Assembly: GCA_030835745.1 (NCBI GenBank)
Contig: JAUROA010000032.1
Location: forward strand, 1-58,756
Source of the DNA: Alphaproteobacteria bacterium
GTDB lineage: Bacteria; Pseudomonadota; Alphaproteobacteria; Rickettsiales; UBA1997
Reading direction: 5' to 3'
DNA length: 58,756 bases
The notes beneath the pieces were generated by a model. That model was not told where the DNA came from. It worked only from the letters and a program-made list of their open reading frames with translations, and ran no database searches. A program made the position numbers and the translations under genes. Positions 10,160 through 42,300 of the stretch are shown piece by piece; position 1 is the stretch's first letter, and each line of letters opens with the position of its first letter.

Positions 10160-11116
10160 ATGCCAAATAGTAAGAGCGATAATTTAGAAGGTTTATTGAA
10201 AGCTGGATTAGAAGAAGATACAATATTTTTAGCCATTCATAGTCGTGATCTTGCAAGGGTAAAAAATGTATGGCAAAGAAATGATAAGGCAGAATATGAA
10301 AGACATAATCCTCCTAAAATTGGCAATAGAAAGCAACCAAATGGAGGTCAAACACCTCTTTTATATGCTGTCAATAATGGTACATTTGATATAGTTAAAT
10401 TTATATGTGATAATTCTAAAACATTATTAGATGAGCCGGATTATGGTGGTGTTACGCCTCTAATTGCTGCATGTGAAAAAGGTTCTAAAGAAATTGTTAG
10501 TTTTCTAATTAACAGCCGTGCCGATCGTAATAAATGTAGGATAGAAGATGGATTTAGGGCTTTGGAAGTTGCAATAGGTAGAGGTGATGTTTTTAATCCT
10601 GAAGAGTTGAGTAAATTATTAAAAGCCGGAGCTGATTTTGAAAAAGGGTCTGTAACGTCAAAATTTACTCCGCTTCAAGTTGCAATAAAAAGAAATAATA
10701 TAGATGCATTAAATTTCTTATTATCTAAATTATGTCCCAATAATTCTAAATTGGACAATGAAAATGCTATTTCTTCAATTAAAACTGCAATAGATGTTGA
10801 TAATTTAGAAGCAATAAAATTATTAATGCCAAACTTGAATGTCCAAGAATTTAATCCAAGACAAGTTAATCAAATAAGCAAATTAATTGAAAAAAAAGGA
10901 AACATAAACACTGAAATTAAATTCTTAATAGAAAATTATATCAACTCTCAAACACCTTCTACTGGTAAGCGTAAAGAAAGAGAAGATGAAGCAAAATCAG
11001 GTCAAGGTGATATAGGAAGTCGACCTGGTAGGAGTTTTAATCTATCTCAAGAGTCAAGAGTTACAATTGAATCTTTAACCGGTGGATCTGAAACTCATAA
11101 AAGTAGGGAAACTTAG
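10160..11116 (+). CDS. Ankyrin-repeat protein (candidate secreted effector)
   Basis: Several ANK repeats are present: GQTPLLYAVNNGTFDIVKFI, GVTPLIAACEKGSKEIVSFLINSRADRN and FTPLQVAIKRNNIDALNFLL. The C-terminal tail is disordered and contains a basic patch GKRKERED. Confidence 0.85.
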   Translation: MPNSKSDNLEGLLKAGLEEDTIFLAIHSRDLARVKNVWQRNDKAEYERHNPPKIGNRKQPNGGQTPLLYAVNNGTFDIVKFICDNSKTLLDEPDYGGVTPLIAACEKGSKEIVSFLINSRADRNKCRIEDGFRALEVAIGRGDVFNPEELSKLLKAGADFEKGSVTSKFTPLQVAIKRNNIDALNFLLSKLCPNNSKLDNENAISSIKTAIDVDNLEAIKLLMPNLNVQEFNPRQVNQISKLIEKKGNINTEIKFLIENYINSQTPSTGKRKEREDEAKSGQGDIGSRPGRSFNLSQESRVTIESLTGGSETHKSRET

Positions 11117-11910: not shown

Positions 11911-12513
11911 ATGACAAATTATAATTTTATTACCTTTGAAGGTATTGAAGGATGTGGTAAATCAACTCAAGTAAAATTGCTTCAAGAATTTTTTCAAGAA
12001 AAAAATATAAAATCTATTACCACAAGAGAGCCTGGAGGAGTGGCAATTTCAGAAAAAATTAGAGATATTTTAATAAATAGCGACAATATTAGTCCAAAAA
12101 CCGAGTTACTTCTTAATTTTGCTGCAAGAATTGAGCATATTAATAACCTTATTAAGCCAAATTTACAAAGTAACCGAAAGGTAATATGTGATCGTTTCTT
12201 TGACTCAACACTTGCTTATCAAGGTTTTGCAATGGGTTTGAAAATTTCAGAGATATTGCAAATTAAAGAAATTGCTATAGCTAATTTTAAGCCAGATATA
12301 ACTTTTTTGCTTGATATGGATGTTGAAAAAGCTTTTTTAAGAATCAAAAATCGTGCCGATAATAATCGCTATGATGCAATGTCTATTGATTTTCATAATA
12401 AGGTTAGAAGAGGCTTTTTAGAGATTGCTAAGCAAAATAATAATAGGATAATAATTATTGATGCTAATCGCTCAAAAGAACAAATTTTTCAACAAATTAT
12501 TGCTAAATTATGA
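11911..12513 (+). CDS. tmk: Thymidylate kinase
   Basis: FITFEGIEGCGKSTQ P-loop, the TREPGG motif and the DRFFDSTLAYQG (DRY-like) motif. Confidence 0.92.
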   Translation: MTNYNFITFEGIEGCGKSTQVKLLQEFFQEKNIKSITTREPGGVAISEKIRDILINSDNISPKTELLLNFAARIEHINNLIKPNLQSNRKVICDRFFDSTLAYQGFAMGLKISEILQIKEIAIANFKPDITFLLDMDVEKAFLRIKNRADNNRYDAMSIDFHNKVRRGFLEIAKQNNNRIIIIDANRSKEQIFQQIIAKL

Positions 12514-12596
12514 CAAAAAAATCTTATTATAAAGCATTCTCTTTAGTTGAGATATCGGTAACTATTTTAATTTTTTCTTTTTTATTGGCAATTGTT
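12510..12596 (+). other. Class III (prepilin) signal sequence plus N-terminal hydrophobic helix
   Basis: KA|FSLVE has Phe at +1 and Glu at +5, with Ala instead of the usual Gly at -1. Confidence 0.6.
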
Positions 12597-13373
12597 CAAT
12601 ATGGTGTTGGTTTTTATCAGGAGTCGCAAATAGTTAAAGCAAAAGCACATAGTAAAAATGCTCCAATGAATCATATGTCAAATTTGATAATATGGTATGA
12701 AACTTCTTTAGAAGATAATTTTAAAGAACAAAATATTGCCGATTCTCAAGATATTGAAATATGGTATAATAGAGCGCCAAATTATTGGCATCAAAATAAT
12801 GCTACTCAATATAATATTGCCAATAGGCCAATTTATAAAGAAAAAGTTTTGAATGAAACGATCTCAGCTTTATATTTTGATGGCTCTGACGATTTCTTAA
12901 ATTTTGATGCAAATTTACTAATTAACTCTGATTTTAGTTTTATAGTTGTTGAAACTAGACTTAGGGGAGATAATCACGACTATTATATTGGTGGGTTGGG
13001 TGGTTCGAGTCAAAATTTCCATATGGGCTATAGCACGCCAACAACTGCCAGATTTGGCATTTATGGCTCTGCTATTGCAGATTATACAATAAGTGATTAT
13101 TCAACTCCAATTGCACGCATTAATAGCTTTATATTTAGCAAGCAATCTGGTTCTAAATTTTGGATTAATGGTGGAGTCCAGCCTAAGGGTACTAATAGTA
13201 TCGCAAATTATCTATCATCATATCAGGGGGCAAGAATTGGTGATACTGAAAATGCTTATTTTTATCAAGGATATATTGCTGAGATGATTGTTTTTAATAA
13301 AGCGTTAAATAACCAAGAAAGGCAAGATATAGAGAAATATTTGAGCAATAAATTTAATATTAAATTAGATTAG
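12510..13373 (+). CDS. Prepilin-type (class III signal) protein with a single LamG/ConA-like lectin module; small modular pilin/pseudopilin
   Basis: N-terminus MTKKSYYKA|FSLVEISVTILIFSFLLAIV is a 9-aa basic leader, then F+1 and E+5, then a hydrophobic helix. The body shares IEIWYN, NATQ, RPIY, LYFDGSDDFL and YQGYIAEMIVFNKALNNQERQDIEKYLSNKF with the repeats of the downstream giant gene. The start overlaps the tmk stop (ATGA). Confidence 0.7.
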   Translation: MTKKSYYKAFSLVEISVTILIFSFLLAIVQYGVGFYQESQIVKAKAHSKNAPMNHMSNLIIWYETSLEDNFKEQNIADSQDIEIWYNRAPNYWHQNNATQYNIANRPIYKEKVLNETISALYFDGSDDFLNFDANLLINSDFSFIVVETRLRGDNHDYYIGGLGGSSQNFHMGYSTPTTARFGIYGSAIADYTISDYSTPIARINSFIFSKQSGSKFWINGGVQPKGTNSIANYLSSYQGARIGDTENAYFYQGYIAEMIVFNKALNNQERQDIEKYLSNKFNIKLD

Positions 13374-13531: not shown

Positions 13532-13618
13532 GTGCGCAACATAAATTTAAAGTCAGCATTTGGTATAATTGAGCTTAGTATAATATTAACTGTTATATCA
13601 ATAATCATTGCTGTTGTC
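13532..13618 (+). other. Class III (prepilin) signal sequence plus N-terminal hydrophobic helix of the giant protein
   Basis: 9-aa basic leader MRNINLKSA, then FGIIE (F+1, E+5) and about 20 hydrophobic residues. The layout is the same as in the 12510 gene. Confidence 0.6.
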
Positions 13619-16600
13619 ACTTCAACAAAAGTTGTTGAAAAGAAAGTTGAAACTGTTGGGTCTGTTACTGTTAGTTTAGATAAATTTGTTGATGCTATTT
13701 CGCAATTTGCCAGCTCCAATAAAAGATTTCCATGTCCGGCTTCAATTGAATCCAAGCCATCAGACGCTAATTTTGGTAAAGAGCAATTTGACAATTCAAA
13801 TGATGACAAAACATTGCATCAATGTTCTGGAGCTGGAATTTTCTTTGGAGAGGGTTCGCCAGAAGCGCAGAATTTAGTATATGGCATGTTGCCAATTAAT
13901 GATTTGGGCTTGAGTATTTCAGCTGCATCCGATTCTTTTGGTGCAAAATTGGTCTATATAGTTGATAAAAGATTAGCAAGAGACAACGGAATTGCGAATA
14001 ATTATGATTCTGACCCAATTATAAATCTTGAAAATAAAGTAACTAATACATCGCAGCTACTTGATTTTATTGTCATTAGCTATGGTTCTAACAAAAATAA
14101 CGCATATAATTTAAATAGTATCTCAAAAAATAATGCTTCAATCATTGAAGATGAGATAAGTAATCAACTCATTTCAGCGTCAGGTACAAATTTTGATAAT
14201 AATTTTGTAAAAAGTTCAAATGATAAAAAGTTTGATGATATTATAGTTGGGGGTAAAAAATATGAAATCATCAAGGAATTCAGCATGGAAGATGTTATAA
14301 GATGCGAGCAGCATAGTGATTTTTTATATGGTATTAATATGGTGTGGAATAGTGATGGATCGGCTAGATCTGGAGAAATTATTGCTTCTGACACACCTTG
14401 CCCAAGCAATTTTAGTTATGGCCCTACCAATGCTTATAAAAGATGTGTTAATGGTATTTGGGGAGATGTTGAAGTTGGTTGTAAAGCTGCTCCATCATGT
14501 TATGTTAGTATAGAAGGGGTAGAGCCGCAAATTGTTGATATTGGATCAGGAACTTTGCCATGCTCACTTCGTGGATATTCAGGTTCAATAAATTATAATT
14601 GCAATGAATTAGTTGAAGGCGTTTCTGCTTCTGGTCAAGTAACAGAAGGGTATGATGGCGATCTAATTATTAATGGTTCTTGTAGCAATATAGGCGATGG
14701 TTGCTATATTGAAGATGTTTTAGGTATTGATAATCGTACAGTTATATACGGAGTTAATAAAGCTGGATCATCAGGCACTATTCAATGTCGCGAAGGTTTT
14801 ACAGGATCTCTAACTTATGATTGTCAGTGCACTTTGGGTGGAAGTTTTACTGAGCATTGCCCAAGAAATTGCCCATGTACTGGTAAGTATAAAATAGGAG
14901 AATATCCTTCTGTACATTCAAATGGAATTAGTGGAATGGTTCTTGATAGTGGTGTTAAAATTACAGTTTATAGCGGTGGTAGTTTTACAGGCTCAACTGC
15001 AGTATTTACATCAACACAAAATAATTGTTCTAATGGATGGAATGATAGAGTCAGAAGTTATAAATTTGAAATGATCAATGGCATTTGTCCTGAAACTAAT
15101 ATTAATTTATCAGTTACAGATTCATGCGCTATTTCAACATTGCCTGATTTTTCATCTGTAATTGATGCCAAAATTGGTGATCAGTCTGAATTAGACAATA
15201 TTGAGTCAAATATTAAATTATGGCTAGATGCATCTAATATTGACGGCAATAATAATAGATATGTTAAAAATGGTCAAAAAATTAATAAATGGTATGATTT
15301 AAGTGGTAATAATTATAATGCTACTCAAGATACTGAATCATATAGACCTACTTATGATGGAGCCTCGTTTATATTTGATGGCTCTAATGATCATTTCACT
15401 TTGCCAAATATTTTTGCTGGTACTAGTCAGGCAACTGGAATTATTGTAATTAAGGATAAAGAGCTTTCAACAGCTGCAAGAAATATGGCGCACTGGGATT
15501 TCGGTAATTATGGCCAAGTCATGAATGTTTATGGTGGGGGATGTTGTAGACAAGTTTATGATAATTTTGGAATGAGCTCTAGGCCTCTAACTGTAAGTGA
15601 TATTCAAAAAAACAACGAAACTCAGATATATATAATTCAAAATGATGGGTCTAATTTTACTAGCTATATGGATGGTCAATTTGGTATTTCAGCAAGTAGT
15701 GGTGGATATAATATGAGATCAAACCCTTTGATTGGTAAAGGTTGGGGTAGCTCTAATACAAGTGGGTCTGCTTACTTTAAAGGTGAAATTAAAGAAATTA
15801 TTATGTTTGATAAAATTCTTTTAAGTAAAGAAAGATACATCATAACTCATTATTTATCAAAAAAATGGGGGCTTGAAGATTTTGTTGATAGTGATGGTGA
15901 TGGTGTTGTTGATAGTCTCGATGATACCCCCTATGGAGAGTCTAGGATTATTTTTTCAGAAGCAATTACCCAAGAAATTGGTGATTTGGCAGGAGATTTA
16001 TCTCATTTAAATGCTAATTTAAAATTATGGCTAGATGCTCAAAATACAAATGACGATAGTAATAGAGGTTTGATTGATGGTTCTGCAATTGCGCAGTGGA
16101 ATGACCTTAGTGGTAATAATTATCACCTCGCTCAAAGTTCATCAGGTTACAGGCCTGTAATTAATTCTGAGTCAGGAAAGGATTATGTAGATTTTGTTTC
16201 AAATGATTTTTTAACAACTAATCTAAGTCAAGGTTTTAGCGACCTAAATGGAGAAGATAGGACTATTATAGTATTATTCAAGCAAGAAGAGGTTGCAGAT
16301 AATCCTTATGCAGGATCTGGAATAATATCTACAAGGCCATATGGTAATCAAAGTCTTGGTTTTACATTTTCAGTAAAAAATAATCAAACAGCTTTTGCTT
16401 ATAGTAGAGAGCAATCATCATCTGAGGTAATTTCTAATGATATTATGGCATTAAATCAATTTCATATTTTGTCATTTAGAACTACAAAAAATGATCAACA
16501 AATTTTAAAAGAAGGAAAAGTTATTGCTCAAGAGTTGCTAGATGTGTGGGATATACAAAATAGTGGCAATTTAGTGCTAGGAAAAGAAAGGCATGCAGAG

Positions 16601-19600
16601 TTACAATATGGCTATAAATTTCATGGTAAAATTGCCGAAGTGATAATTTTTGACAAAAAGATTTCAGATGAAGATTTATATAAAATAAATCATTATTTAG
16701 CTAAAAAATGGGGGCATGAATCTTCATTAGATAGCGATGGTGACGGGGTGGTTGATAGTCTTGATGAAAATCCAACATCTCATTTAATTCTTCATTTTAC
16801 ATTTGACAATACTAATATTTCTGAAATTGGTGATTATAAGATAATTTCATATGATGAACAAAATCCCGATATACTAACTTATAACTTATCTAACTCAAGA
16901 GATTTAACTCCTGTATTATTCAAGCATAATGAATATTATTCAACGGCCGGATCCCCAACTAATCCGTCAGACTTTTTTAAACTTAATAAAGATTTAGATT
17001 TAAGAAATTACCCTAAATTTTCAATAAGCTTTTGGGCCATGGCTAATAGTGATATTGACGGACAAGCCTTAACGGGTGGTAGTGAAAAATATTCTAGACT
17101 ATTTAATATGAGAAAACAATCTCATGGCTATATAGGATATCAAAATACTAATATTGGAATTTTGTATGATAATTGGCAAAATAACACTCCATTTAATCAG
17201 AGATGGGTACAGAAAGCTTATTATAGAGGTGATGGCAGTTGGAGCTATTTAGAATCAAATAATTTTGCAATGGATTTTAGGAATTGGGTACATTATGCTT
17301 TTACTTTCGACATGGATAATGACTATATAGCCTTTTACAAGAATGGTCAATTAAATGGTTATCATAATACTTCAAATAATTATTCGGATCTATATCCATA
17401 TTTTCACCTGGGATCGCATGGTGCATCCCATGGAGATGGTCAAAGATCATATTTTGATGATTTTAGAATTTATTCAGTAGCTTTAACTGCCAGTGAGGTT
17501 GAAGCAATATATAATGCCACAGATAAGATCACATTGCAAGATAAGATATTATATTATGGCAATGGTGTTGATGGCGATGTGACTATTAATTCTGGAAATA
17601 TTAACACCACATCATATATTGTTGGCAGGACAGCTCCTGATGGCGAAGCATTTAGTGTTGAGGCTATTGATGTTAATAAAATTTCTGTTAAAGGAGTTGG
17701 AACTGGTGGTACCTCATCTTCTAATGTAGCAAATTCATTTAAAGTTGGAGATATCTTGCTATTAATAAATATGAGGGGAGATGCTAATAATTTCGACAAT
17801 GTTGGTAATTATGAATTTGTTAAAGTTCAAGGAGTTGAACAAAATAATATTACTATTAATGGTCAAATTAAGAAAATTTATGGCCTTTCTGATAATTCAG
17901 ATTTAACTAGTCAATCTGTTATGATTCAAAGAGTTCCGCAATATGATAATTTATATTTAAATGGTGATATCACGGTTCAAGATTGGGATGGTCAGGTTGG
18001 TGGTATTTTGGCAGTAAAAGTAAAAAATATTTTAGTTAATAATACTAGTATTGATGTTAGTAAAAAAGGTTATAGAGGTGGTGCTAGAGTTGATGGAGGA
18101 AGTGCACCATATGGGCTTCAAGGTGAATCAATATCTGGTCAAACTAATATTATGATTAATAGCAATAATCAGGGTGGCGGCGGTGGTGGAATTTCATGCA
18201 GCCATGCAGCTGGTGGTGCTGGAGGTGGTTATGGCTCAAATGGAGCTAATGGCTCTAATGGAAATAGTTGCTCACCTGGAGGAACGGCAGGTTTGGCATA
18301 TGGAGAAAATAGCTTTCCATCTAAAATTTTTTTGGGATCAGGAGGTGGATCAGGAGGTGAAGATAATAGAGAGCCAGAATCATGGGCGGGTCCAGGTTTT
18401 AAAGGTGGTGATGGTGGAGGCATAATAATGATCTATGCTAATAATATCACGATCAATAGTGGTGCTAATTTTATTGCTAATGCAGAAAATGGAGAGTCAA
18501 GAGGATCTGCCTATGGTCAAGATGGCGGAGGTGGAGGAGGGGGCTCTGGAGGTAGTATTAATATTGTTACAAATAATTATAATGGTAGCTTAAATTATCA
18601 AATAAATGGTGGCTCTGGAGGATCGGTTGACACTAATGGAGATGGTGGCGCCGGAGGGGCTGGAAGGTTTAAATTATCATCGCAAATTGCTGAATTAGAT
18701 ATTGCAGATAGTAATTTGGCATATTCTTTTGATATTTTATCTTTAGGATCAAAAATATCCTTATGGCTTGATGCCACAAATATTGATGGTTACGATAATT
18801 CAACTTTAAGTGACGGTGATAAAATAAGTAGTTGGAAAAATCTTGCTAAGTCTAATGCTTTAACACAAACCAATATCTCTAACCAGCCTACCTTGGTTGA
18901 AGGTTATCTAAATCAAAAGCCAGCTGTAAAATTTGATAGATCTTCAAAACATTTTCTGCAAGATTTAAGTTTTAGCGAAAATCTTAACACAATTTTCTTT
19001 GTTTATAAGCCAAATAATGATATAAATAAAAGTACTTCTTCATGTGGCGGTATTAATTTTAATCAAAATAGTAATATTGCCTTGTGGTTTGGCTCTGTAA
19101 CAGAGCATCTAAATGATGAGATATTATCATTTAATAGTGGAAATCCATTAGAAGCCTGGGTCGCTCCTAATGAAGAAGCTATATCAAGTCAAAATGCTAA
19201 TATTTTTGCAGTAAGATATAGTGGTAGTAACATGAATCTTTATTATAATGGCATTATAAAAAATAATGCAGTTAGAACAGAAAATGTGCACGAATACACA
19301 ACTAACGGTATCAAATTATCGCAATCAACTGCTCTTAATAATGATTTATGCTATCTCGATGGTTATATAGCAGAGCTAATTATTGTTAATCAAGCATTAA
19401 CTAATGATGAGTTTAACAGAATTAACTATTATTTATCATATAAATGGGGCTTGATGGATGTTGTTGATAGTGACGCAGATTCATTAATTGACTCTGCAGA
19501 TTCTTTTCCTTTAAAGTCAGATGGAGAAGTGTTGGTAAGAAGTATCCCTCCTAAATTATGGTTAGATTCTAAAAATATCGATGGTCAAAATAATTTGACT

Positions 19601-20863
19601 ATTTCAGGAGCAATTTCATCTTGGTATGATTTAAGTGGTAATTCTTACAATGTAACTCAGTCTTCAACGTCAAACCAGCCATCATATGATGGTGCAGGGG
19701 TGTATTTTGATGGCTCAAATGATTATATGTGGACAGAATCTTTGGAAAGCCTTAATGAGGCTACAATATTTGCAGTTCTTGATTTAGGAAATATTGATTT
19801 TAGCGGCAATAACGCTGGCGGGGGCGCTGTTACAATCCAGCAGCAAGGAGTTGATAATTTTGATTCAATAGTATATCATGAAAGAAGCGATGCTGATAGA
19901 AAATTTATGCATGGATCTAGTTACTTTCAAAGGACTTATGTTTCATCTGTAGCTGAAGTTGATACTGGGCCATTTATTTATCAATATCAAATAAAGAGTG
20001 GCGAATTTGCAATATATAGAAATGGAGTGTTAGTAGGTCAAGCTACTTATAGCTCTACAAATAAACCAAATACAAGATTTATATTAGGCAATAGACATTT
20101 ATCAGGAACTAGCCCTACTAGTAATGGATATTGGTTTGGAAGAATTTATGAAACAATTATATTAAATCGCAAAGTTACAGATGAAGAGAGATCTAAAATT
20201 ACACATTATCTTGCAAGTAAATGGAATTTATCAGGAGAAGTTGATAGTGATTCAGATGGTGTTGTTGATAATATTGATGATAATCCATTAGTAGCATCAG
20301 GGTCATCATGTGATACTTCTCAAGTATCAAGAATAAATAATCCAGATTTTTTCTATCGATATGGTTCATATACTACTGGTAGTAGTTACTCATTAAATAA
20401 CTGGACATTATCATCTTCGATTGGAACATGGAGCAATGAGGGTTTAAATTCAATATTAACAACACCAGAAAATTTTGGCAGATATGGTAATAATGGTGAA
20501 AATAATTGCTGTAATGTAACATATCCTAGGGCTGCTGGTTTTACCAGAAATAATCCAACCATAACAATTGCCATGGATAAGCAATATTATATTTCAGAAT
20601 TTGAATGGTATGGGGTAAATGGTATTCACGGATCGAGGAGGAATGCAAAAGATGTTTTAATGCAGGGCTCCAATGATAATGCTACATGGGTTGATTTATT
20701 ATCATTTCAACTTCCCGAATTAGCAAGTTGGGATACGGCATCGAGATTTACTCTTGATAATCCAGGAAGTTATCAATATGTTCGATTTATTGTTAGCTAT
20801 AGTTGGGGAGATGCCAATTCAACAAAAATTGGCACCATATATTTGTTTGGCCCAGATTGCTAA
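13532..20863 (+). CDS. Giant (2443 aa) prepilin-signal protein: multi-LamG lectin-like adhesin with Sushi-like, beta/gamma-crystallin-like, TSP3-type Ca-binding, glycine-rich and C-terminal discoidin-like modules
   Basis: A single uninterrupted ORF with a GTG start preceded by aaagggg. N-terminus MRNINLKSA|FGIIELSIILTVISIIIAVV. Five LamG-type modules follow the pattern LWLDA.N, W.DLSGN, Q, RP, FDG, F.G.I.E.I.F, YL..KWG. Four acidic linkers (three D-x-D-x-DG-x-x-D, one degenerate), a G-rich block and a Cys-to-Cys terminal domain are also present. Confidence 0.75.
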   Translation: MRNINLKSAFGIIELSIILTVISIIIAVVTSTKVVEKKVETVGSVTVSLDKFVDAISQFASSNKRFPCPASIESKPSDANFGKEQFDNSNDDKTLHQCSGAGIFFGEGSPEAQNLVYGMLPINDLGLSISAASDSFGAKLVYIVDKRLARDNGIANNYDSDPIINLENKVTNTSQLLDFIVISYGSNKNNAYNLNSISKNNASIIEDEISNQLISASGTNFDNNFVKSSNDKKFDDIIVGGKKYEIIKEFSMEDVIRCEQHSDFLYGINMVWNSDGSARSGEIIASDTPCPSNFSYGPTNAYKRCVNGIWGDVEVGCKAAPSCYVSIEGVEPQIVDIGSGTLPCSLRGYSGSINYNCNELVEGVSASGQVTEGYDGDLIINGSCSNIGDGCYIEDVLGIDNRTVIYGVNKAGSSGTIQCREGFTGSLTYDCQCTLGGSFTEHCPRNCPCTGKYKIGEYPSVHSNGISGMVLDSGVKITVYSGGSFTGSTAVFTSTQNNCSNGWNDRVRSYKFEMINGICPETNINLSVTDSCAISTLPDFSSVIDAKIGDQSELDNIESNIKLWLDASNIDGNNNRYVKNGQKINKWYDLSGNNYNATQDTESYRPTYDGASFIFDGSNDHFTLPNIFAGTSQATGIIVIKDKELSTAARNMAHWDFGNYGQVMNVYGGGCCRQVYDNFGMSSRPLTVSDIQKNNETQIYIIQNDGSNFTSYMDGQFGISASSGGYNMRSNPLIGKGWGSSNTSGSAYFKGEIKEIIMFDKILLSKERYIITHYLSKKWGLEDFVDSDGDGVVDSLDDTPYGESRIIFSEAITQEIGDLAGDLSHLNANLKLWLDAQNTNDDSNRGLIDGSAIAQWNDLSGNNYHLAQSSSGYRPVINSESGKDYVDFVSNDFLTTNLSQGFSDLNGEDRTIIVLFKQEEVADNPYAGSGIISTRPYGNQSLGFTFSVKNNQTAFAYSREQSSSEVISNDIMALNQFHILSFRTTKNDQQILKEGKVIAQELLDVWDIQNSGNLVLGKERHAELQYGYKFHGKIAEVIIFDKKISDEDLYKINHYLAKKWGHESSLDSDGDGVVDSLDENPTSHLILHFTFDNTNISEIGDYKIISYDEQNPDILTYNLSNSRDLTPVLFKHNEYYSTAGSPTNPSDFFKLNKDLDLRNYPKFSISFWAMANSDIDGQALTGGSEKYSRLFNMRKQSHGYIGYQNTNIGILYDNWQNNTPFNQRWVQKAYYRGDGSWSYLESNNFAMDFRNWVHYAFTFDMDNDYIAFYKNGQLNGYHNTSNNYSDLYPYFHLGSHGASHGDGQRSYFDDFRIYSVALTASEVEAIYNATDKITLQDKILYYGNGVDGDVTINSGNINTTSYIVGRTAPDGEAFSVEAIDVNKISVKGVGTGGTSSSNVANSFKVGDILLLINMRGDANNFDNVGNYEFVKVQGVEQNNITINGQIKKIYGLSDNSDLTSQSVMIQRVPQYDNLYLNGDITVQDWDGQVGGILAVKVKNILVNNTSIDVSKKGYRGGARVDGGSAPYGLQGESISGQTNIMINSNNQGGGGGGISCSHAAGGAGGGYGSNGANGSNGNSCSPGGTAGLAYGENSFPSKIFLGSGGGSGGEDNREPESWAGPGFKGGDGGGIIMIYANNITINSGANFIANAENGESRGSAYGQDGGGGGGGSGGSINIVTNNYNGSLNYQINGGSGGSVDTNGDGGAGGAGRFKLSSQIAELDIADSNLAYSFDILSLGSKISLWLDATNIDGYDNSTLSDGDKISSWKNLAKSNALTQTNISNQPTLVEGYLNQKPAVKFDRSSKHFLQDLSFSENLNTIFFVYKPNNDINKSTSSCGGINFNQNSNIALWFGSVTEHLNDEILSFNSGNPLEAWVAPNEEAISSQNANIFAVRYSGSNMNLYYNGIIKNNAVRTENVHEYTTNGIKLSQSTALNNDLCYLDGYIAELIIVNQALTNDEFNRINYYLSYKWGLMDVVDSDADSLIDSADSFPLKSDGEVLVRSIPPKLWLDSKNIDGQNNLTISGAISSWYDLSGNSYNVTQSSTSNQPSYDGAGVYFDGSNDYMWTESLESLNEATIFAVLDLGNIDFSGNNAGGGAVTIQQQGVDNFDSIVYHERSDADRKFMHGSSYFQRTYVSSVAEVDTGPFIYQYQIKSGEFAIYRNGVLVGQATYSSTNKPNTRFILGNRHLSGTSPTSNGYWFGRIYETIILNRKVTDEERSKITHYLASKWNLSGEVDSDSDGVVDNIDDNPLVASGSSCDTSQVSRINNPDFFYRYGSYTTGSSYSLNNWTLSSSIGTWSNEGLNSILTTPENFGRYGNNGENNCCNVTYPRAAGFTRNNPTITIAMDKQYYISEFEWYGVNGIHGSRRNAKDVLMQGSNDNATWVDLLSFQLPELASWDTASRFTLDNPGSYQYVRFIVSYSWGDANSTKIGTIYLFGPDC
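14303..14482 (+). other. Sushi/CCP-like four-cysteine module
   Basis: C258-x31-C290-x14-C305-x11-C317 with NGIW after the third Cys. The spacing and the Trp resemble complement control protein modules. More C..G[YF].G...Y.C modules follow up to about 14880. Confidence 0.4.
14881..15072 (+). other. Beta/gamma-crystallin-like Greek-key segment
   Basis: ITVYSGGSFTGSTAVF fits [YFW]-x4-[FY]-x-G, and NDRVRSYKF follows downstream. Confidence 0.4.
15215..17525 (+). repeat. Three consecutive LamG/ConA-like jelly-roll modules (about 15215-15886, 16019-16729, 16781-17525) separated by TSP3-type acidic linkers
   Basis: Modules 1 and 2 start with KLWLDA and end with YL.KKWG plus DSDGDGVVDSLD (15887..15925 and 16730..16768). 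Module 3 is the Laminin_G_3 style (LHFTFDN, SISFWA, DDFRIYSVALTASEVEAIYN). Confidence 0.65.
17548..18690 (+). other. Glycine-rich, probably beta-helical insert
   Basis: GNGVDGDVTINSGNINT is followed by runs such as NQGGGGGGISCSHAAGGAGGGYGSNGANGSNG, GSGGGSGGED, DGGGGGGGSGGSINIV and GGSGGSVDTNGDGGAGGAG. Confidence 0.5.
18755..20242 (+). repeat. Two further LamG/ConA-like modules (about 18755-19465 and 19550-20242) with acidic linkers
   Basis: SLWLDATNIDG to YIAELIIVNQALTNDEFNRINYYLSYKWGL plus DSDADSLIDSAD (19466..19501). KLWLDSKNIDG to RIYETIILNRKVTDEERSKITHYLASKWNL plus DSDSDGVVDNIDD (20243..20281). Confidence 0.65.
20309..20860 (+). other. C-terminal discoidin (F5/8 type C)/galactose-binding-like domain bounded by Cys residues
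   Basis: It begins at Cys2260 and ends at the terminal Cys2443. The YVRFIVSYSWGD and TIYLFG strands resemble discoidin-fold domains, and eukaryotic FA58C domains are closed by a disulfide between their first and last Cys. Confidence 0.45.
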
Positions 20864-39398: not shown

Positions 39399-42300
39399 AT
39401 GTTTGAACTACAAGAGAGATTGCTTAATTTTATAGATAAAAAAAACCTTTCACAAGTAATTAACAAGAAAAATTTTGAAATATTTGCAAGTAATTTCTAT
39501 TCCGAGTCTAATCAGTCAGACTTTTTGCAATATAGCGATGATGATTTATTTAATCACATATTGAGTGCTTATCAATTTATTTTATCAAAAGGTCATGAAA
39601 GGTCTAAAATTAGAATTTTCAATCCAGATAAAAAGAAAGATGGCTTTGAGTCATATTATACAATAATTGAAATTGCTAACATTGATGCACCATTTTTAGT
39701 TGATTCAGCAGTGGGATATCTCGATAAGCACTCAATTGAAATAATCAATATTATTCATCCTACTTACGACATATCTAGAGACATATTAGGTAAAGTTAAA
39801 AATATTGCATGTGATAAGGAAAAAAGAAATGAATCAATAATCCAGTTTCACATTGAAAAAATTAATAATGAGATTGAAATAAATAATTTTACAAAAGGTC
39901 TAGAGCAAGTAATTGAAACGGTTAATTTGGTAGTATCTCAGTGGAGGTCTATGCTTGAAGTTGTAAAAAGCTGCAAGCTACAAATTGATAATTCAGCTAA
40001 GATTATTAGCGATCGAGACTATATTCAAGAAATAAAAGATTTTATTGATTGGATGGTGTCAGGTAATTTTGTTTTATTGGGTGTTAAAGAGTTTGACATT
40101 AAAAAAAATAAAGATTCAAAGCATATATTAGAAGAGGTTAAAGGGCAAGAATTTGGTGTTTTTTGTTCTCAATATGATGAAATGAAGCCTAGTGTAATTA
40201 ATTCAACAATTTCAGAAATTGAAGATTCGGTTAAAAGGCCATATATAATTGAAATACTTAAATCACGTTATCGATCTAAAATTCATAGAGTTGCCAATGC
40301 TGAGAGAATTAGAATTCAGAAAATTTCTCCTTCTGGTAAGGTAATTGGTGAATATAGAATTATAGGATTATTTACCTCATCAGCATATAATCAGTCTATT
40401 AAATTGATTCCTTTAGTAAGAAAAAAGGCGCAAAAAGTTATTGATGATTCCGGATTTATTAAAGGTAGTCACAATTATAAGGATTTGGTAACTGTTTTGG
40501 AATTTTACCCAAGAGACGAGCTATTTCAAATTTCTCACGAAGATCTTTTAAAAAATGCCGTTGGGATTGTGTCAATATGCGGTAGATCAAAGGTTAAGTT
40601 CTTTGCAAGAAAAGATAAGTTTGAAAGATTTGTTAGTTGTCTGATTTTTACTCCAAAAGATAGAAGTAATTCTGAATTGAGAACCAAAATCAGAAATTAT
40701 CTTGCTAAAGTATATAATGGCGAGGTGGCAGATTTTTTTGTGCAAATTAATGATTCAAATCTTGTAAGAATTCATATTATCATAAGAAATAATAGTTCTA
40801 TTCCAAATGTTGATGATTTAAAAGTTGAAAAGGAAATAGCAAAAATGACTAGAATATGGATGGATGACTTATTGCAGACAGTTAAAGCTAAATATAGCGA
40901 TGATAGAGCTTTAGATATATATTCAAAATATAAGAATTCATTTTCTATAAGTTATAAAAATAGATTTAGCGCTAGAAGAGCGGCAATTGATATTTCATAT
41001 ATTGAAGATTGCATTAATCAAAAAAATACTATTTTTAAGTTTTATAAATCATCTCAAGACCTAGATAAGGATATAATAGAGCTTAAAATATACAACCCTC
41101 ATGCAGAAGTGCCACTATCCAAGATAATGCCAATTCTTAATAGTTTTAATTTAGAGGTTATCAAGGAGCATACATATCCAATTGAAATTAATAAAGAGGG
41201 TAGGGTTAGAGAGCGAGATATAGTTTGGATTAATTATTTTAATTTAAAATTAGGCGATAAATCATTTAAATATTGCCATAAATTAAGATTAAATTTTGAA
41301 AAAGCGATTTCCTTAATTTGGTCTGGTGTCATTGAATGTGGAGAGTTAAATAAACTATTAATATCTGCCGATCTTAATTGGAAGCAAATATATATGTTAA
41401 GAGCATATACAAGATATATATATCAAACTGATTTAAAATATAAAACAAATTATATATCAAATACTCTTAATAAATATCATAATATTACTCGTAATCTAAT
41501 AGATCTTTTTGAGGTAAAATTTAACCCATTTTTATTGCTAGATGACAATAAAAGAAATGAGGAAATTAACAAGATTTCAAGCCAAATTAATCTTCAATTG
41601 TCAAAAGTTAGCGATGCTATTGAAGATAGTGTAATTAGAAGTTATTATAACTGTATTAAAGCAACTTTAAGAACAAATTATTACCAGTCAAAGATTTCTG
41701 GAGGATTTAAGGGCTATATTTCATTTAAGTTTAATTCACAAGAAATCCCAAATTTACCACTTCCAAGACCATATGCAGAAATTTTTGTATATTCTAAAGA
41801 AGTTGAAGCAATTCACCTAAGAGGTGGTAAAGTTGCAAGAGGTGGTTTAAGGTGGTCTGATAGATTGCAAGATTACAGAACTGAGGTTTTGGGTCTTATG
41901 AAGGCGCAAATGACAAAAAATGCAGTAATAGTGCCTGAAGGGTCAAAAGGTGGTTTTGTTGTTAAAAAGGATCTGTCAAATTTATCAAGAAATGAAGCAG
42001 AAAATATCGCTATTGAATGTTATAAAATATTTTTAAGAGGCGTGTTAGATATTACTGATAATGTTGTTAAAAACAAAATTATACACCCAAAATCTTGTAT
42101 AATTTATGATAAGGCTGACCCATATCTTGTTGTGGCAGCGGATAAAGGTACTGCAACTTTTTCTGATACGGCAAATTCAATATCTAATGAATATAATTTT
42201 TGGCTTGGAGATGCTTTTGCCTCTGGAGGTTCTTATGGTTATGATCATAAAAAAATGGGAATTACTGCTAAGGGGGCATGGGTGTCGGTAATGAGGCATT

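What the first reader, a model, noticed from the sequence alone, without database searches (positions are those of the whole stretch)
13532..20863. The giant protein stacks eukaryote-type extracellular adhesion modules
Reading the translation in order, the protein contains these elements.
- Pilin-like N-terminus (aa 1-257).
- Four-Cys module C258-x31-C290-x14-C305-x11-C317 with NGIW, matching Sushi/CCP spacing.
- Further Cys-rich C..G[YF].G...Y.C units.
- A [Y]-x4-F-x-G plus ND..RS Greek-key signature (beta/gamma-crystallin-like).
- Two LamG modules, a Laminin_G_3-type module and a Gly-rich block.
- Two more LamG modules.
- A terminal domain opened and closed by Cys (C2260...C2443) with a YVRFIV strand, like FA58C/discoidin domains.
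The LamG modules are joined by D-x-D-x-DG-x-x-D-x-x-D thrombospondin-type-3-like Ca-binding loops at 15887, 16730 and 20243, plus a degenerate copy at 19466. This combination (LamG, TSP3, Sushi, discoidin) is the vocabulary of metazoan extracellular matrix and complement proteins. It suggests host-surface or glycan binding and possibly domain acquisition from a host.
Basis: partly seen in the sequence, partly recalled or inferred. Interest (0 to 1): 0.8.

Follow-up and report, generated by a model that had tools for sequence, protein, structure and literature searches.

The report
Giant modular type IV pilin adhesin
This 2,443-residue gene from a small-genome aquatic alphaproteobacterium looks like an oversized "modular pilin": a pilus-subunit head carrying about a dozen bacterial-type sugar- and calcium-binding modules, probably for sticking to surfaces, and not a set of domains taken from an animal host.

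Summary
The gene is real: it has a syntenic 89 % ortholog and dN/dS of about 0.12.

Domain calls:
- **Pilin-like N-terminus:** supported. It belongs to a family of about 40 members whose other members pass N_methyl/TIGR02532. The family profile hits solved type IV pilins.
- **Beta/gamma-crystallin:** supported. 30 of the 31 closest homologs are Pfam Crystall proteins, all bacterial.
- **Five LamG modules:** supported, but all as Laminin_G_3.
- **C-terminal discoidin-like domain:** supported at threshold. Its nearest solved relative is a bacterial mannosidase module.
- **First 4-Cys module ("Sushi"):** remotely related to the HormR/Sushi group (hhalign 90 % to HormR, 5 % to CCPs), below Pfam cut-offs, and conserved throughout the pilin family.
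- **Other Cys units:** an unnamed bacterial repeat.
- **"TSP3" loops:** no HMM support. They form the tail of the duplicated LamG unit.

GC3 is native, and no eukaryotic protein was recognised among the close hits of the one segment searched exhaustively (aa 250-560). Host acquisition is therefore unsupported.

Best reading: an extreme modular type IV pilin, nearly three times the largest in the 2021 survey, acting as a tip or surface adhesin whose binding cassettes are swapped between strains.

The parts
12510..13373 (+). Upstream 287-aa pilin-like partner gene: class III signal-like N-terminus (KAFSLVEIS) plus one LamG module. It overlaps tmk by 4 nt.
   Evidence: Pfam N_methyl E 8e-4 and Laminin_G_3 E 6e-5. 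TIGR02532 15.1 bits. The same gene pair is found in L082 and L086. Its LamG is 24-26 % identical to the giant's modules.
13532..20863 (+). Giant ORF, 2443 aa, GTG start.
   Evidence: 89 % syntenic ortholog P0002/L082. dN/dS 0.12-0.13. GC3 0.185 is native.
13532..13639 (+). Class III (prepilin-type) signal: leader MRNINLKSA, predicted cleavage A|F, F+1, E+5 (aa 14), then a hydrophobic alpha-1 helix.
   Evidence: Sequence. The family profile aligns this F with residue 1 of mature pilins in PDB: Geopilin 1e-5, S. sanguinis PilE1 1e-4, PilA, GspG. 15 of 22 relatives hit N_methyl and relatives pass TIGR02532. The giant itself hits neither model.
13640..14302 (+). Conserved globular pilin head (aa 37-257) with motifs NKRFPCPAS, YGMLP..LGL, D.FG.K..Y.VDK, ISYG.NK and FDD.
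   Evidence: 34-36 % identity to P0010 and P0071. 39 related loci in metagenomes. Invariant columns are listed in A6. The fold is not established: the AF2 model had pLDDT 34.
14303..14482 (+). "W module" (aa 258-317): 4 Cys with C..G.W; a remote HormR/Sushi-type domain.
   Evidence: Pfam HRM lands on this module in relatives (E 4e-4 to 0.06) and in the giant (0.067). In a PDB profile search, 44 of 45 hits are class-B GPCR ectodomains or CCP proteins. hhalign to HRM gives 90.2 %, score 34.2, against 9.0 +/- 2.0 for 400 shuffles.
14498..14878 (+). Two copies of a bacterial 4-Cys repeat (aa 323-384 and 391-449), C...G...GSG..C..G[YF].G...Y.C....GSC, plus a CxC/CPxxCPC cluster.
   Evidence: The same repeat occurs 43 times in the giant plus 11 proteins found by exhaustive search. 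No Pfam family. No Sushi or HRM signal by hhalign. The AF2 model (pLDDT 74) has no Foldseek match in PDB.
14879..15091 (+). Beta/gamma-crystallin-type Greek-key module (aa about 450-520): one complete motif (YSGGSFTG...WNDRVRSYKF) and a shortened one.
   Evidence: phmmer E down to 3e-16 to multi-repeat proteins, 30 of 31 of which are Pfam Crystall. The isolated piece gives Inhibitor_I36 0.006 and Crystall 0.019.
15197..15922 (+). LamG module 1 (LWLDA...YLSKKWG) with its acidic tail DSDGDGVVDSLD at 15887. Its core (aa about 601-765) is a swapped cassette.
   Evidence: Laminin_G_3 E 0.027. 35 % identical to module 5. The core is only 22-30 % identical to the ortholog while the flanks are above 90 %; dS 1.47 against 0.2.
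16004..16765 (+). LamG module 2 with its acidic tail at 16730.
   Evidence: Laminin_G_3 E 5e-6. DNA repeat families D1/D2.
16775..17566 (+). LamG module 3, a different subtype without the WLD/KWG ends.
   Evidence: Laminin_G_3 E 2e-10, 41 bits, above the cut-off.
17567..18736 (+). Gly-rich block (20 % Gly).
   Evidence: NCBIfam gliding_AgmC_N E 2e-27 over aa 1418-1718, below the model cut-off. 31 % identical over 223 aa to the Pfam Gly_rich_2 domain of relative L089; low-complexity caveat applies.
18740..19501 (+). LamG module 4 with a degenerate acidic tail (DSDADSLIDSAD) at 19466.
   Evidence: Laminin_G_3 E 2e-5..
19535..20278 (+). LamG module 5 with its acidic tail DSDSDGVVDNID at 20243.
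   Evidence: Laminin_G_3 E 1e-4..
20309..20860 (+). C-terminal F5/8 type C (galactose-binding-like) domain bracketed by invariant Cys 2260 and 2443. It is replaced by a LamG-like domain in the 89 % ortholog.
   Evidence: F5_F8_type_C 27.7 bits (cut-off 28.2), E 3e-6. 55 % homologs P0006-9 carry precomputed PF00754. The profile hits a GH92 mannosidase module, E 3e-5. The terminal Cys are invariant. Swap shown.

Best explanation
The gene most likely encodes an extreme modular type IV pilin (type IV filament subunit).

Its parts:
- A prepilin-type N-terminus and a conserved pilin head of about 260 residues act as the carrier.
- Grafted behind the head is a string of about 12 extracellular modules. 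These are a HormR/Sushi-like 4-Cys module, two copies of a bacterial 4-Cys repeat, a beta/gamma-crystallin Greek-key module, five ConA-like LamG lectin-type modules (four of them ending in an acidic DxDxDG loop), a Gly-rich block, and a terminal F5/8C sugar-binding-type domain.

Inferred mechanism:
1. The prepilin peptidase cuts before Phe10.
2. The hydrophobic alpha-1 helix docks the protein into a pilus or pseudopilus. Given its bulk, this would be at the tip, probably together with the small LamG pilin encoded just upstream.
3. The module string then projects from the cell and binds polysaccharide or other surface ligands, with calcium probably stiffening the linkers and the crystallin module.
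4. Two binding modules, the LamG-1 core and the C-terminal domain, are exchanged as cassettes between close strains. This fits selection on ligand specificity or on escape from phages and grazers.

Shown: the gene is real and under purifying selection; it belongs to a pilin family; the module identities; the cassette swaps.
Inferred: processing, tip location, calcium binding, ligand class and adhesion.
For: Pilin family membership:
- The head is 34-36 % identical to P0010 and P0071, and 39 related loci were found.
- 15 of 22 relatives hit N_methyl and relatives pass TIGR02532.
- The family profile hits solved type IV pilins, with F aligned to mature residue 1.
- F+1, E+5 and a hydrophobic stretch of about 20 residues are present.

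Partner and neighbours:
- The small LamG pilin is conserved immediately upstream in the window, L082 and L086.
- Tandem pilin genes occur in L087, L092 and L094.

Mini-version: P0071 (556 aa) has the same head, W module, one Cys unit and the same C-terminal domain. The giant is therefore an expansion of a shared plan.

Modules:
- Laminin_G_3 x5, nearest solved structures being the sialidase lectin domain and an S-layer protein.
- F5/8C.
- Crystallin.
- HormR-like module.

Selection and native status:
- dN/dS is 0.12-0.13.
- Two modules are swapped, with dS 1.47 against 0.2.
- GC3 is native.

Precedent:
- Modular pilins are widespread, PF13385 is among the commonest grafted modules, and such pilins are thought to be tip-exposed (PMC8179133).
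- The S. sanguinis PilA-PilC lectin complex binds glycans (PMC9934059, abstract).
Against: - The giant's own N-terminus hits neither N_methyl nor TIGR02532.
- The residue at -1 is Ala, not the canonical Gly. This holds for most of the family.
- No pilus-assembly genes (ATPase, platform, peptidase, secretin) lie in the 58.8-kb window or next to most relatives. Whether the organism has the machinery is unknown.
- The fold of the head could not be modelled (pLDDT 34).
- A 2443-residue subunit is nearly three times the largest modular pilin in the 2021 survey (860 aa). How it would pass an outer-membrane secretin is unaddressed.
- No ligand, calcium binding or surface exposure has been tested.
Confidence: 0.6

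Rival explanations
1. The pilin-like N-terminus works only as an uncleaved signal-anchor, or as an export tag for a type II-like system. On this reading the protein is a membrane-tethered or secreted envelope protein (matrix, S-layer-like or polymer-capture protein) that is never built into a filament.
For: - Ala at -1, and no N_methyl or TIGR02532 hit for the giant itself.
- No assembly genes nearby.
- Its extreme size relative to known pilins.
- One solved hit of the LamG profile is an S-layer-domain protein.
Against: - E+5, F+1 and the conserved head are kept across about 40 relatives, many of which pass the pilin models.
- The gene is paired with a second pilin-like gene.
- Small family members of 320-340 aa look like ordinary minor pilins with one extra module.
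Confidence: 0.2
2. One reading: a mosaic of eukaryote-type extracellular-matrix and complement modules (Sushi, TSP3, LamG, discoidin) acquired from a eukaryotic host and used to bind host surfaces.
For: - The W module resembles metazoan HormR/CCP domains more than anything else solved.
- A relative carries a TSP1 repeat above Pfam's cut-off.
- The terminal domain is closed by an invariant Cys pair, as in FA58C. The comparison with FA58C is my own knowledge.
- An ankyrin-repeat gene lies 2.4 kb upstream.
Against: - The close homologs of the crystallin module carry bacterial-type domains. For the LamG and C-terminal modules the nearest solved matches are a pneumococcal sialidase lectin domain, an S-layer protein and a GH92 mannosidase module. 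No taxonomy is available for the four close C-terminal homologs.
- LamG matches only Laminin_G_3.
- There is no Sushi, TSP_3 or Crystall hit above cut-off in the giant.
- The W module is family-wide and only remotely HormR-like: it has 4 Cys rather than 6, scores below Pfam's cut-off, and gives 5 % to CCPs.
- GC3 is native in every module.
- The housekeeping context and biosynthetic genes argue for a free-living cell, and AtpD is nearest aquatic MAGs and Pelagibacterales.
Confidence: 0.06
3. The filament it belongs to serves DNA uptake (a competence pseudopilus) or capture of dissolved polymers for nutrition rather than adhesion. The modules would bind substrate, not surfaces.
For: - Judged by N-terminal sequence only, a comF-like gene sits directly upstream of the pilin clusters in L087 and L089.
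- Relatives give weak hits to ComGC, ComGD and ComGE models.
- Lectin-type modules could bind dissolved polysaccharide.
- The SAR11 literature speculates on nutrient uptake for large adhesin-like genes lying next to pilus genes (PMC12636525).
Against: - The Com hits cover only the shared N-terminal helix and fall far below the model cut-offs.
- No com or DNA-binding module was found in the giant.
- The comF identification was not tested with an HMM.
Confidence: 0.12

Closest known systems
Modular type IV pilins (S. sanguinis PilB with a vWA module, PilC with a ConA-like lectin module; Raynaud et al. 2021 PNAS, PMC8179133; Shahin et al. 2023, PMC9934059)
   Same: - An N-terminal pilin module carries grafted functional modules.
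- PF13385/ConA-like lectin modules are among the commonest grafts.
- A small partner minor pilin is present.
- Tip display and ligand binding are predicted.
   Different: - It has 2443 aa and about 12 modules, against 860 aa for the largest in that survey.
- It comes from a diderm alphaproteobacterium.
- Its head is a large 260-aa domain of its own family, with Ala at -1.
- Crystallin and HormR/Sushi modules are absent from that survey's architecture list. FA58C and TSP1 each occur once.
- The giant is invisible to the N_methyl model such surveys rely on.
HormR / HRM domain (Pfam PF02793; ectodomains of class-B and adhesion GPCRs) and Sushi/CCP (PF00084)
   Same: - The core pattern W...G..v...CP......R.C..dG.W is shared.
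- The best PDB hits are CRFR1 and PTH1R ectodomains, followed by CCP proteins.
- hhalign gives 90 % to an HRM alignment, far above the shuffle controls.
   Different: - The module has four Cys, not six, so the three-disulfide HRM pattern cannot form.
- It scores below Pfam's cut-off everywhere (best 21 bits against 26.2).
- It gives only 5 % to CCPs.
- It is always fused behind a bacterial pilin head.
- No structural confirmation was possible.
Bacterial beta/gamma-crystallin domains (Pfam PF00030/PF08964; for example Protein S-type calcium-binding modules, from my own knowledge)
   Same: The Y-x4-F-x-G ... W-N-D-x-x-x-S Greek-key signature is present, and the nearest relatives are multi-repeat Crystall proteins.
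   Different: There is a single module with a shortened first Greek key. It scores below the Pfam cut-off on its own (15.5 bits against 25).
Large adhesin-like genes of coastal SAR11 (5-9.5 kb, next to type IV pilus or T2SS genes; ISME J 2025, PMC12636525)
   Same: A very large surface-protein gene in a streamlined aquatic alphaproteobacterium, linked to pilus-type systems and sometimes lying in variable regions.
   Different: Those genes are annotated as autotransporters. No autotransporter domain was found here, and the link to pili here is the protein's own N-terminus. Homology between the two was not tested because no sequences were in hand.
PilY1/PilC tip adhesins and the CofB/TcpB-type large minor pilins
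   Same: A bulky adhesive protein presented at the tip of a type IV pilus. Modular N-terminal variation includes FA58C and TSP3-like repeats in PilY1 architectures.
   Different: PilY1 is not a pilin and is defined by a C-terminal beta-propeller, which is absent here. CofB is about 500 aa with different modules.

Membership tests
Type IV pilin / type IV filament subunit (class III signal peptide) | Short, polar or basic leader followed by a hydrophobic stretch of about 20 residues | tested here: met
   MRNINLKSA | FGIIELSIILTVISIIIAVV.
Type IV pilin / type IV filament subunit (class III signal peptide) | Gly at -1 of the cleavage site | tested here: not met
   Ala at -1 in the giant and in most of the 22 close relatives. 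Gly occurs in P0071, L099 and the distant members. Whether a prepilin peptidase tolerates Ala here is untested.
Type IV pilin / type IV filament subunit (class III signal peptide) | Phe (or Met) at +1 and Glu at +5 | tested here: met
   F10 and E14. E14, L15 and S16 are invariant or nearly invariant in A6. The F aligns with residue 1 of mature pilins in PDB.
Type IV pilin / type IV filament subunit (class III signal peptide) | Match to the curated N-terminal models (Pfam N_methyl PF07963, TIGR02532) | tested here: inconclusive
   The giant has no hit. 15 of 22 homologs hit N_methyl, and most of the ten rescanned score above its 21.2-bit cut-off. L086, L087, L089 and L102 pass TIGR02532.
Type IV pilin / type IV filament subunit (class III signal peptide) | Globular alpha/beta pilin fold packed on the alpha-1 helix | tested here: inconclusive
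   The AF2 model of aa 1-322 (4-sequence alignment) had pLDDT 34. Only helix 7-36 was predicted.
Type IV pilin / type IV filament subunit (class III signal peptide) | Prepilin peptidase and assembly machinery encoded in the genome | not testable with these tools
   None in the 58.8-kb window. No genome of this organism is in the GTDB set.
Sushi / CCP (PF00084) | About 60 aa with four Cys, a Trp between C3 and C4, and a score above the Pfam cut-off | tested here: not met
   - The spacing C-x31-C-x14-C-x11-C and the C..G.W motif are present.
- There is no Pfam Sushi hit in the giant.
- One relative scores 0.0012.
- hhalign to a factor-H CCP alignment gives 5 %.
- CCP proteins appear only as weak PDB hits, E 0.009-4.
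HormR / HRM (PF02793) | Conserved core (W, CP, R.C..G.W) recognised by profile comparison | tested here: met
   hhalign 90.2 %, E 1.5e-6, score 34.2 against shuffles of 9.0 +/- 2.0 with a maximum of 17.4. CRFR1 ectodomain E 0.005 and PTH1R E 0.02 in PDB. The HRM query sequences were checked against PDB.
HormR / HRM (PF02793) | Six Cys forming three disulfides, and a score above the Pfam cut-off (26.2 bits) | tested here: not met
   Only four Cys are conserved. The best Pfam score is 21.0 bits in L096 and 14.0 in the giant.
Thrombospondin type 3 repeat (PF02412) | HMM match to the repeat, not just a DxDxDG loop | tested here: not met
   No TSP_3 hit for the whole protein at E <= 1 or for the four isolated 41-aa linkers at E <= 10. 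HMMER's filters may hide very weak matches.
Beta/gamma-crystallin (PF00030) | Greek-key signature and significant similarity to family members | tested here: met
   phmmer E down to 3e-16 to proteins of which 30 of 31 are Pfam Crystall. The direct Pfam score of the single module is sub-threshold (0.019).
Laminin G-like / ConA-like lectin (PF13385 Laminin_G_3) | HMM match | tested here: met
   Whole protein E 1e-21, 77.9 bits. Five modules score E 2e-10 to 0.027. No hit to the eukaryote-dominated Laminin_G_1/2 models.
F5/8 type C / discoidin (PF00754) | HMM match above the cut-off | tested here: inconclusive
   27.7 bits against 28.2, E 3e-6. Four homologs at 55 % identity carry precomputed PF00754. 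The profile hits a GH92 mannosidase appended module, E 3e-5.

The most novel reading that the evidence does not exclude
A HormR/Sushi-like disulfide module is a fixed part of a widespread family of bacterial type IV pilins, always directly behind the pilin head. It could be a true prokaryotic relative of the hormone-binding ectodomain of metazoan class-B and adhesion GPCRs. On that reading these pilins, which in relatives also carry TSP1, LamG and discoidin-type modules, would be pilus-tip "receptors" through which streamlined planktonic bacteria recognise eukaryotic (algal or protist) surfaces or peptides.
Probability: 0.15. Interest if true: 0.75.

Novelty: new variant of a known kind. Interest (0 to 1): 0.5.

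Why it matters
Streamlined planktonic alphaproteobacteria are thought of as free-floating and non-adhesive. A recent SAR11 study states that adhesion has never been observed in that group (PMC12636525). Here a 7.3-kb gene, a large share of a small genome if the genome is about the size of the one complete Pelagibacter chromosome among the AtpD hits (1.36 Mb), is kept under purifying selection, and its binding cassettes are swapped between strains. That argues that surface or polymer attachment matters to such cells.

For pilus biology it extends the modular-pilin idea to a far larger and more complex subunit. It also exposes a family that motif-based surveys miss.

For domain evolution it offers a bacterial, pilin-borne relative of the HormR/Sushi group, which can be tested by solving one small domain.

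Tried and rejected
- **GTDB genome scan with the giant protein:** no relative found.
- **Whole-protein and Cys-region word-indexed homolog searches:** almost nothing beyond the ortholog.
- **Whole-protein PDB sequence search:** only chance-level internalin hits.
- **AF2 of one Cys-repeat unit:** pLDDT 74, but Foldseek against PDB gave no match. The Sushi reading of these units is therefore unsupported, though Foldseek is weak on domains of about 60 aa.
- **AF2 of aa 1-322 with 4 sequences:** pLDDT 34, unusable and not searched.
- **hhalign of the W module against the Cys repeat:** no relation.
- **Pfam on the isolated acidic linkers:** no TSP_3 hit.
- **Promoter and terminator scan:** uninformative in this AT-rich DNA.
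- **Context of C-terminal-domain homolog P0007:** uninformative short contig.
- **Literature searches for SAR11 pili:** no paper focused on pili or pilins in SAR11 was found; the searches did surface one SAR11 study on large adhesin-like genes, PMC12636525.
- **Considered and rejected:**
  - Assembly chimera. Against it: identical protein on 4 contigs, a syntenic ortholog, uniform GC3.
  - Autotransporter or RTX adhesin. Against it: no such domains.
  - Recent foreign origin. Against it: native GC3.

Full report
**1. The observation**

The window holds one uninterrupted ORF at 13532-20863 (+), with a GTG start and 2443 codons.
- 30 Cys, 18 of them within aa 258-560.
- The spacing C258-x31-C290-x14-C305-x11-C317, with NGIW at aa 307.
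- YVRFIV at aa 2416, and terminal Cys 2260 and 2443.
- Acidic motifs DSDGDGVVDSLD at nt 15887 and 16730, DSDADSLIDSAD at 19466 and DSDSDGVVDNID at 20243.

The gene is real.
- The identical protein is called on four independent contigs.
- An 89 % identical ortholog (P0002) lies in the same gene order, tmk / small pilin / giant / mdh / PBP / hemH, on a 71.6-kb JGI contig.
- dN/dS between the two is 0.12-0.13 over the conserved 2,050 codons. The neighbouring mdh, tmk and PBP genes give 0.06-0.14.

**2. What the modules are**

*Pfam and NCBIfam on the giant itself.*
- On the whole protein and on nine segments, Pfam finds only Laminin_G_3 (five modules, E 2e-10 to 0.027) and a near-threshold F5_F8_type_C at the C-terminus (27.7 bits against 28.2). 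There is no Sushi, Crystall or TSP_3.
- NCBIfam matches the Gly-rich block to the N-terminal domain of the gliding protein AgmC (E 2e-27, below that model's cut-off).

*Exhaustive search of aa 250-560.* A phmmer search against 1.84 billion representatives split the Cys-rich region into separate entities.
- *Crystallin module.* Residues about 449-520 hit multi-repeat proteins (E down to 3e-16), of which 30 of 31 are Pfam Crystall. Many also carry T9SS sorting tails, bacterial Ig domains or glycoside hydrolases. The crystallin call is right, but the relatives are bacterial.
- *Cys repeat.* Residues about 300-440 hit eleven proteins built from a 4-Cys repeat of about 50 aa, C...TG...V..GSG..C...GY.G.I.Y.C....GSC.
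  - This repeat has no Pfam family.
  - hhalign shows no signal to CCP or HormR alignments.
  - An AF2 model (pLDDT 74) has no Foldseek match in PDB.

*The pilin family.*
- Two of those eleven proteins share the giant's whole N-terminal 320 residues at 34-36 % identity: P0010 (751 aa) and P0071 (556 aa).
- P0071 also ends in the giant's C-terminal domain. It is a miniature of the same plan.
- A metagenome scan with this head alignment returned 39 loci. The proteins begin K/R-x-A-F-[SGT]-L-I-E-L-S and share a head of about 260 aa with the motifs NKRLPCPAS, YGMVP..LGL, D.FG.K..Y.VDK, ISxGxNK and FDD.
- In nearly all of them the same 4-Cys "W module" follows the head, and variable modules come after it. 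Most are 320-750 aa. One (L100) has at least 1786 aa and 107 Cys.
- 15 of 22 members hit N_methyl, and several pass TIGR02532.
- The family profile hits solved type IV pilins and GspG over the first 60 residues, with the family's Phe aligned to residue 1 of the mature pilins.
- The giant itself has F+1 and E+5 but Ala at -1, and it hits neither model.

- Pfam HRM lands exactly on this module in several relatives (E 4e-4 to 0.06) and in the giant (0.067). One relative gives Sushi at 0.0012.
- A 15-sequence profile searched against PDB returned 45 hits. Of these, 44 are class-B or adhesion GPCR ectodomains (CRFR1 E 0.005, PTH1R 0.02) or CCP proteins (MASP-1, C2, C1r, factor B, GABA-B sushi).
- Longer profiles gave the same picture, adding C4BP and the EphB2 Cys-rich region.
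- hhalign against an alignment of ten HormR domains gave 90.2 % probability and a score of 34.2. Four hundred column-shuffled controls averaged 9.0 +/- 2.0, with a maximum of 17.4.
- Against factor-H CCPs the probability was 5 %.
- The module is therefore a remote member of the HormR/Sushi group, closest to HormR. It has four Cys, not six, and scores below every curated cut-off.
- A structural test could not be run.

*LamG modules and their linkers.*
- The four LWLD...KWG modules are 23-35 % identical to one another and 24-26 % identical to the LamG of the upstream gene.
- The acidic loop is the conserved tail of this duplicated unit, visible as DNA repeat families at 62-79 % identity. The four "TSP3-like" loops are therefore one inherited feature.
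- Isolated, the loops give no TSP_3 hit.
- The LamG profile's only solved relatives are the pneumococcal sialidase B lectin domain and an S-layer protein.

*C-terminal domain.*
- Its 55 % homologs are 247-aa proteins that carry precomputed PF00754.
- Its profile hits an appended module of a GH92 mannosidase (E 3e-5).
- The two bracketing Cys are invariant.

**3. Context and organism**
- The flanks are housekeeping genes: ftsY, tmk, mdh, PBPs, hemH, gdh, pntA, ftsZ, purD, thiE, atpD and dnaK.
- No pilus-assembly genes lie in the window, and none lie beside most relatives.
- A 287-aa pilin-like protein with one LamG module is encoded just upstream and overlaps tmk by 4 nt. The same pairing recurs in L082 and L086.
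- AtpD is 86-87 % identical to two aquatic alphaproteobacterial MAGs and about 80 % to Pelagibacterales. This placement is tentative.
- GC3 of the giant (0.185) and of each module (0.14-0.23) matches the host genes.

**4. Strain variation**

Against the ortholog, identity is above 90 % nearly everywhere except in two modules.
- The LamG-1 core (aa about 601-765) is 22-30 % identical, with dS 1.47 against a background of 0.2.
- The C-terminal domain is replaced by a LamG-like domain.

These are cassette replacements, not accelerated point mutation.

**5. Interpretation**

The best-supported reading is an extreme modular type IV pilin.
- The concept is established. Raynaud et al. 2021 found more than 1,200 such proteins in 264 architectures, with PF13385 among the commonest grafts, a largest case of 860 aa, and a likely tip location.
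- Their architecture list has single cases with FA58C and TSP1 and none with Sushi, HormR or crystallin.
- The S. sanguinis PilA-PilC lectin pair is a functional analogue of the two-gene arrangement here.
- Processing, tip display, calcium binding and the ligand class are inferences.
- The main rival is that the N-terminus is only an anchor or export tag.
- The host-acquisition idea is not supported.
- Recent SAR11 work describes large adhesin-like genes next to pilus genes in coastal genomes. Whether those are related was not tested.

**6. Verdict**

The protein is a new, very large variant of a known kind. One lead is worth following: the pilin-borne HormR-like module.

Noticed in passing
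window 10160-11116 (+): A 318-aa ankyrin-repeat protein (Ank_2 E 7e-24) sits between ftsY and an SDR gene. The otherwise syntenic contig L082 lacks it, so it is a strain-specific insertion of a eukaryote-like repeat protein.
   Followed up: partly
window 53387-54607 (+): A 406-aa ORF with no Pfam hit contains a 21-aa tandem duplication (HDIVSNSANDLLEELKD[QK]QGN x2) and ends in ...CPQCCVIS. The last four residues (CVIS) look like a eukaryotic CaaX prenylation box. This could be chance.
   Followed up: no
L086 4251-5741 (family member, aa 329-374): A 496-aa relative of the giant's pilin head carries a thrombospondin type 1 repeat (WNKWSSWSNCS...RSRNC) that passes Pfam's TSP_1 cut-off (22.1 against 21.6 bits). 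It lies directly after the HormR-like module.
   Followed up: partly
L100 9938-15295: Another giant family member, at least 1786 aa and cut by the contig end, has 107 Cys and is built almost entirely of the 4-Cys repeat. Its N-terminus has Asp instead of Glu at +5 (AFSLNDLS).
   Followed up: no
L087 5970-6701 and L089 9244-9963: A gene whose N-terminus looks like ComF (CxxC, ...FPxxCLxC...) lies directly upstream of clusters of one to four tandem pilin-like genes of this family. This hints at a link to competence. It was judged by eye and not checked with an HMM.
   Followed up: no
window 12510-12513: The small pilin-like gene overlaps the stop of thymidylate kinase by 4 nt (ATGA), in the window and in L082. 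The pilin gene therefore appears to be co-transcribed with a housekeeping gene.
   Followed up: partly
window 15332-15826 and 20297-20860 compared with L082: Two modules of the giant protein, the LamG-1 core and the C-terminal domain, are replaced by unrelated or very divergent cassettes in a strain that is otherwise about 95 % identical.
   Followed up: yes
window 39399-44231 (+): The second very long ORF (1610 aa) is an ordinary NAD-specific glutamate dehydrogenase (Bac_GDH_CD E 3e-251) followed by pntA. ORFs of matching lengths (1619 and 364 aa, not tested for homology) lie in the same order downstream of the family pilin in L104.
   Followed up: yes
window about 54000-58756: Cumulative GC skew rises steadily across the window and turns down after about 56 kb, where gene orientation also flips (dnaK and its neighbours are on the minus strand). 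This may be a replication-related switch point.
   Followed up: no
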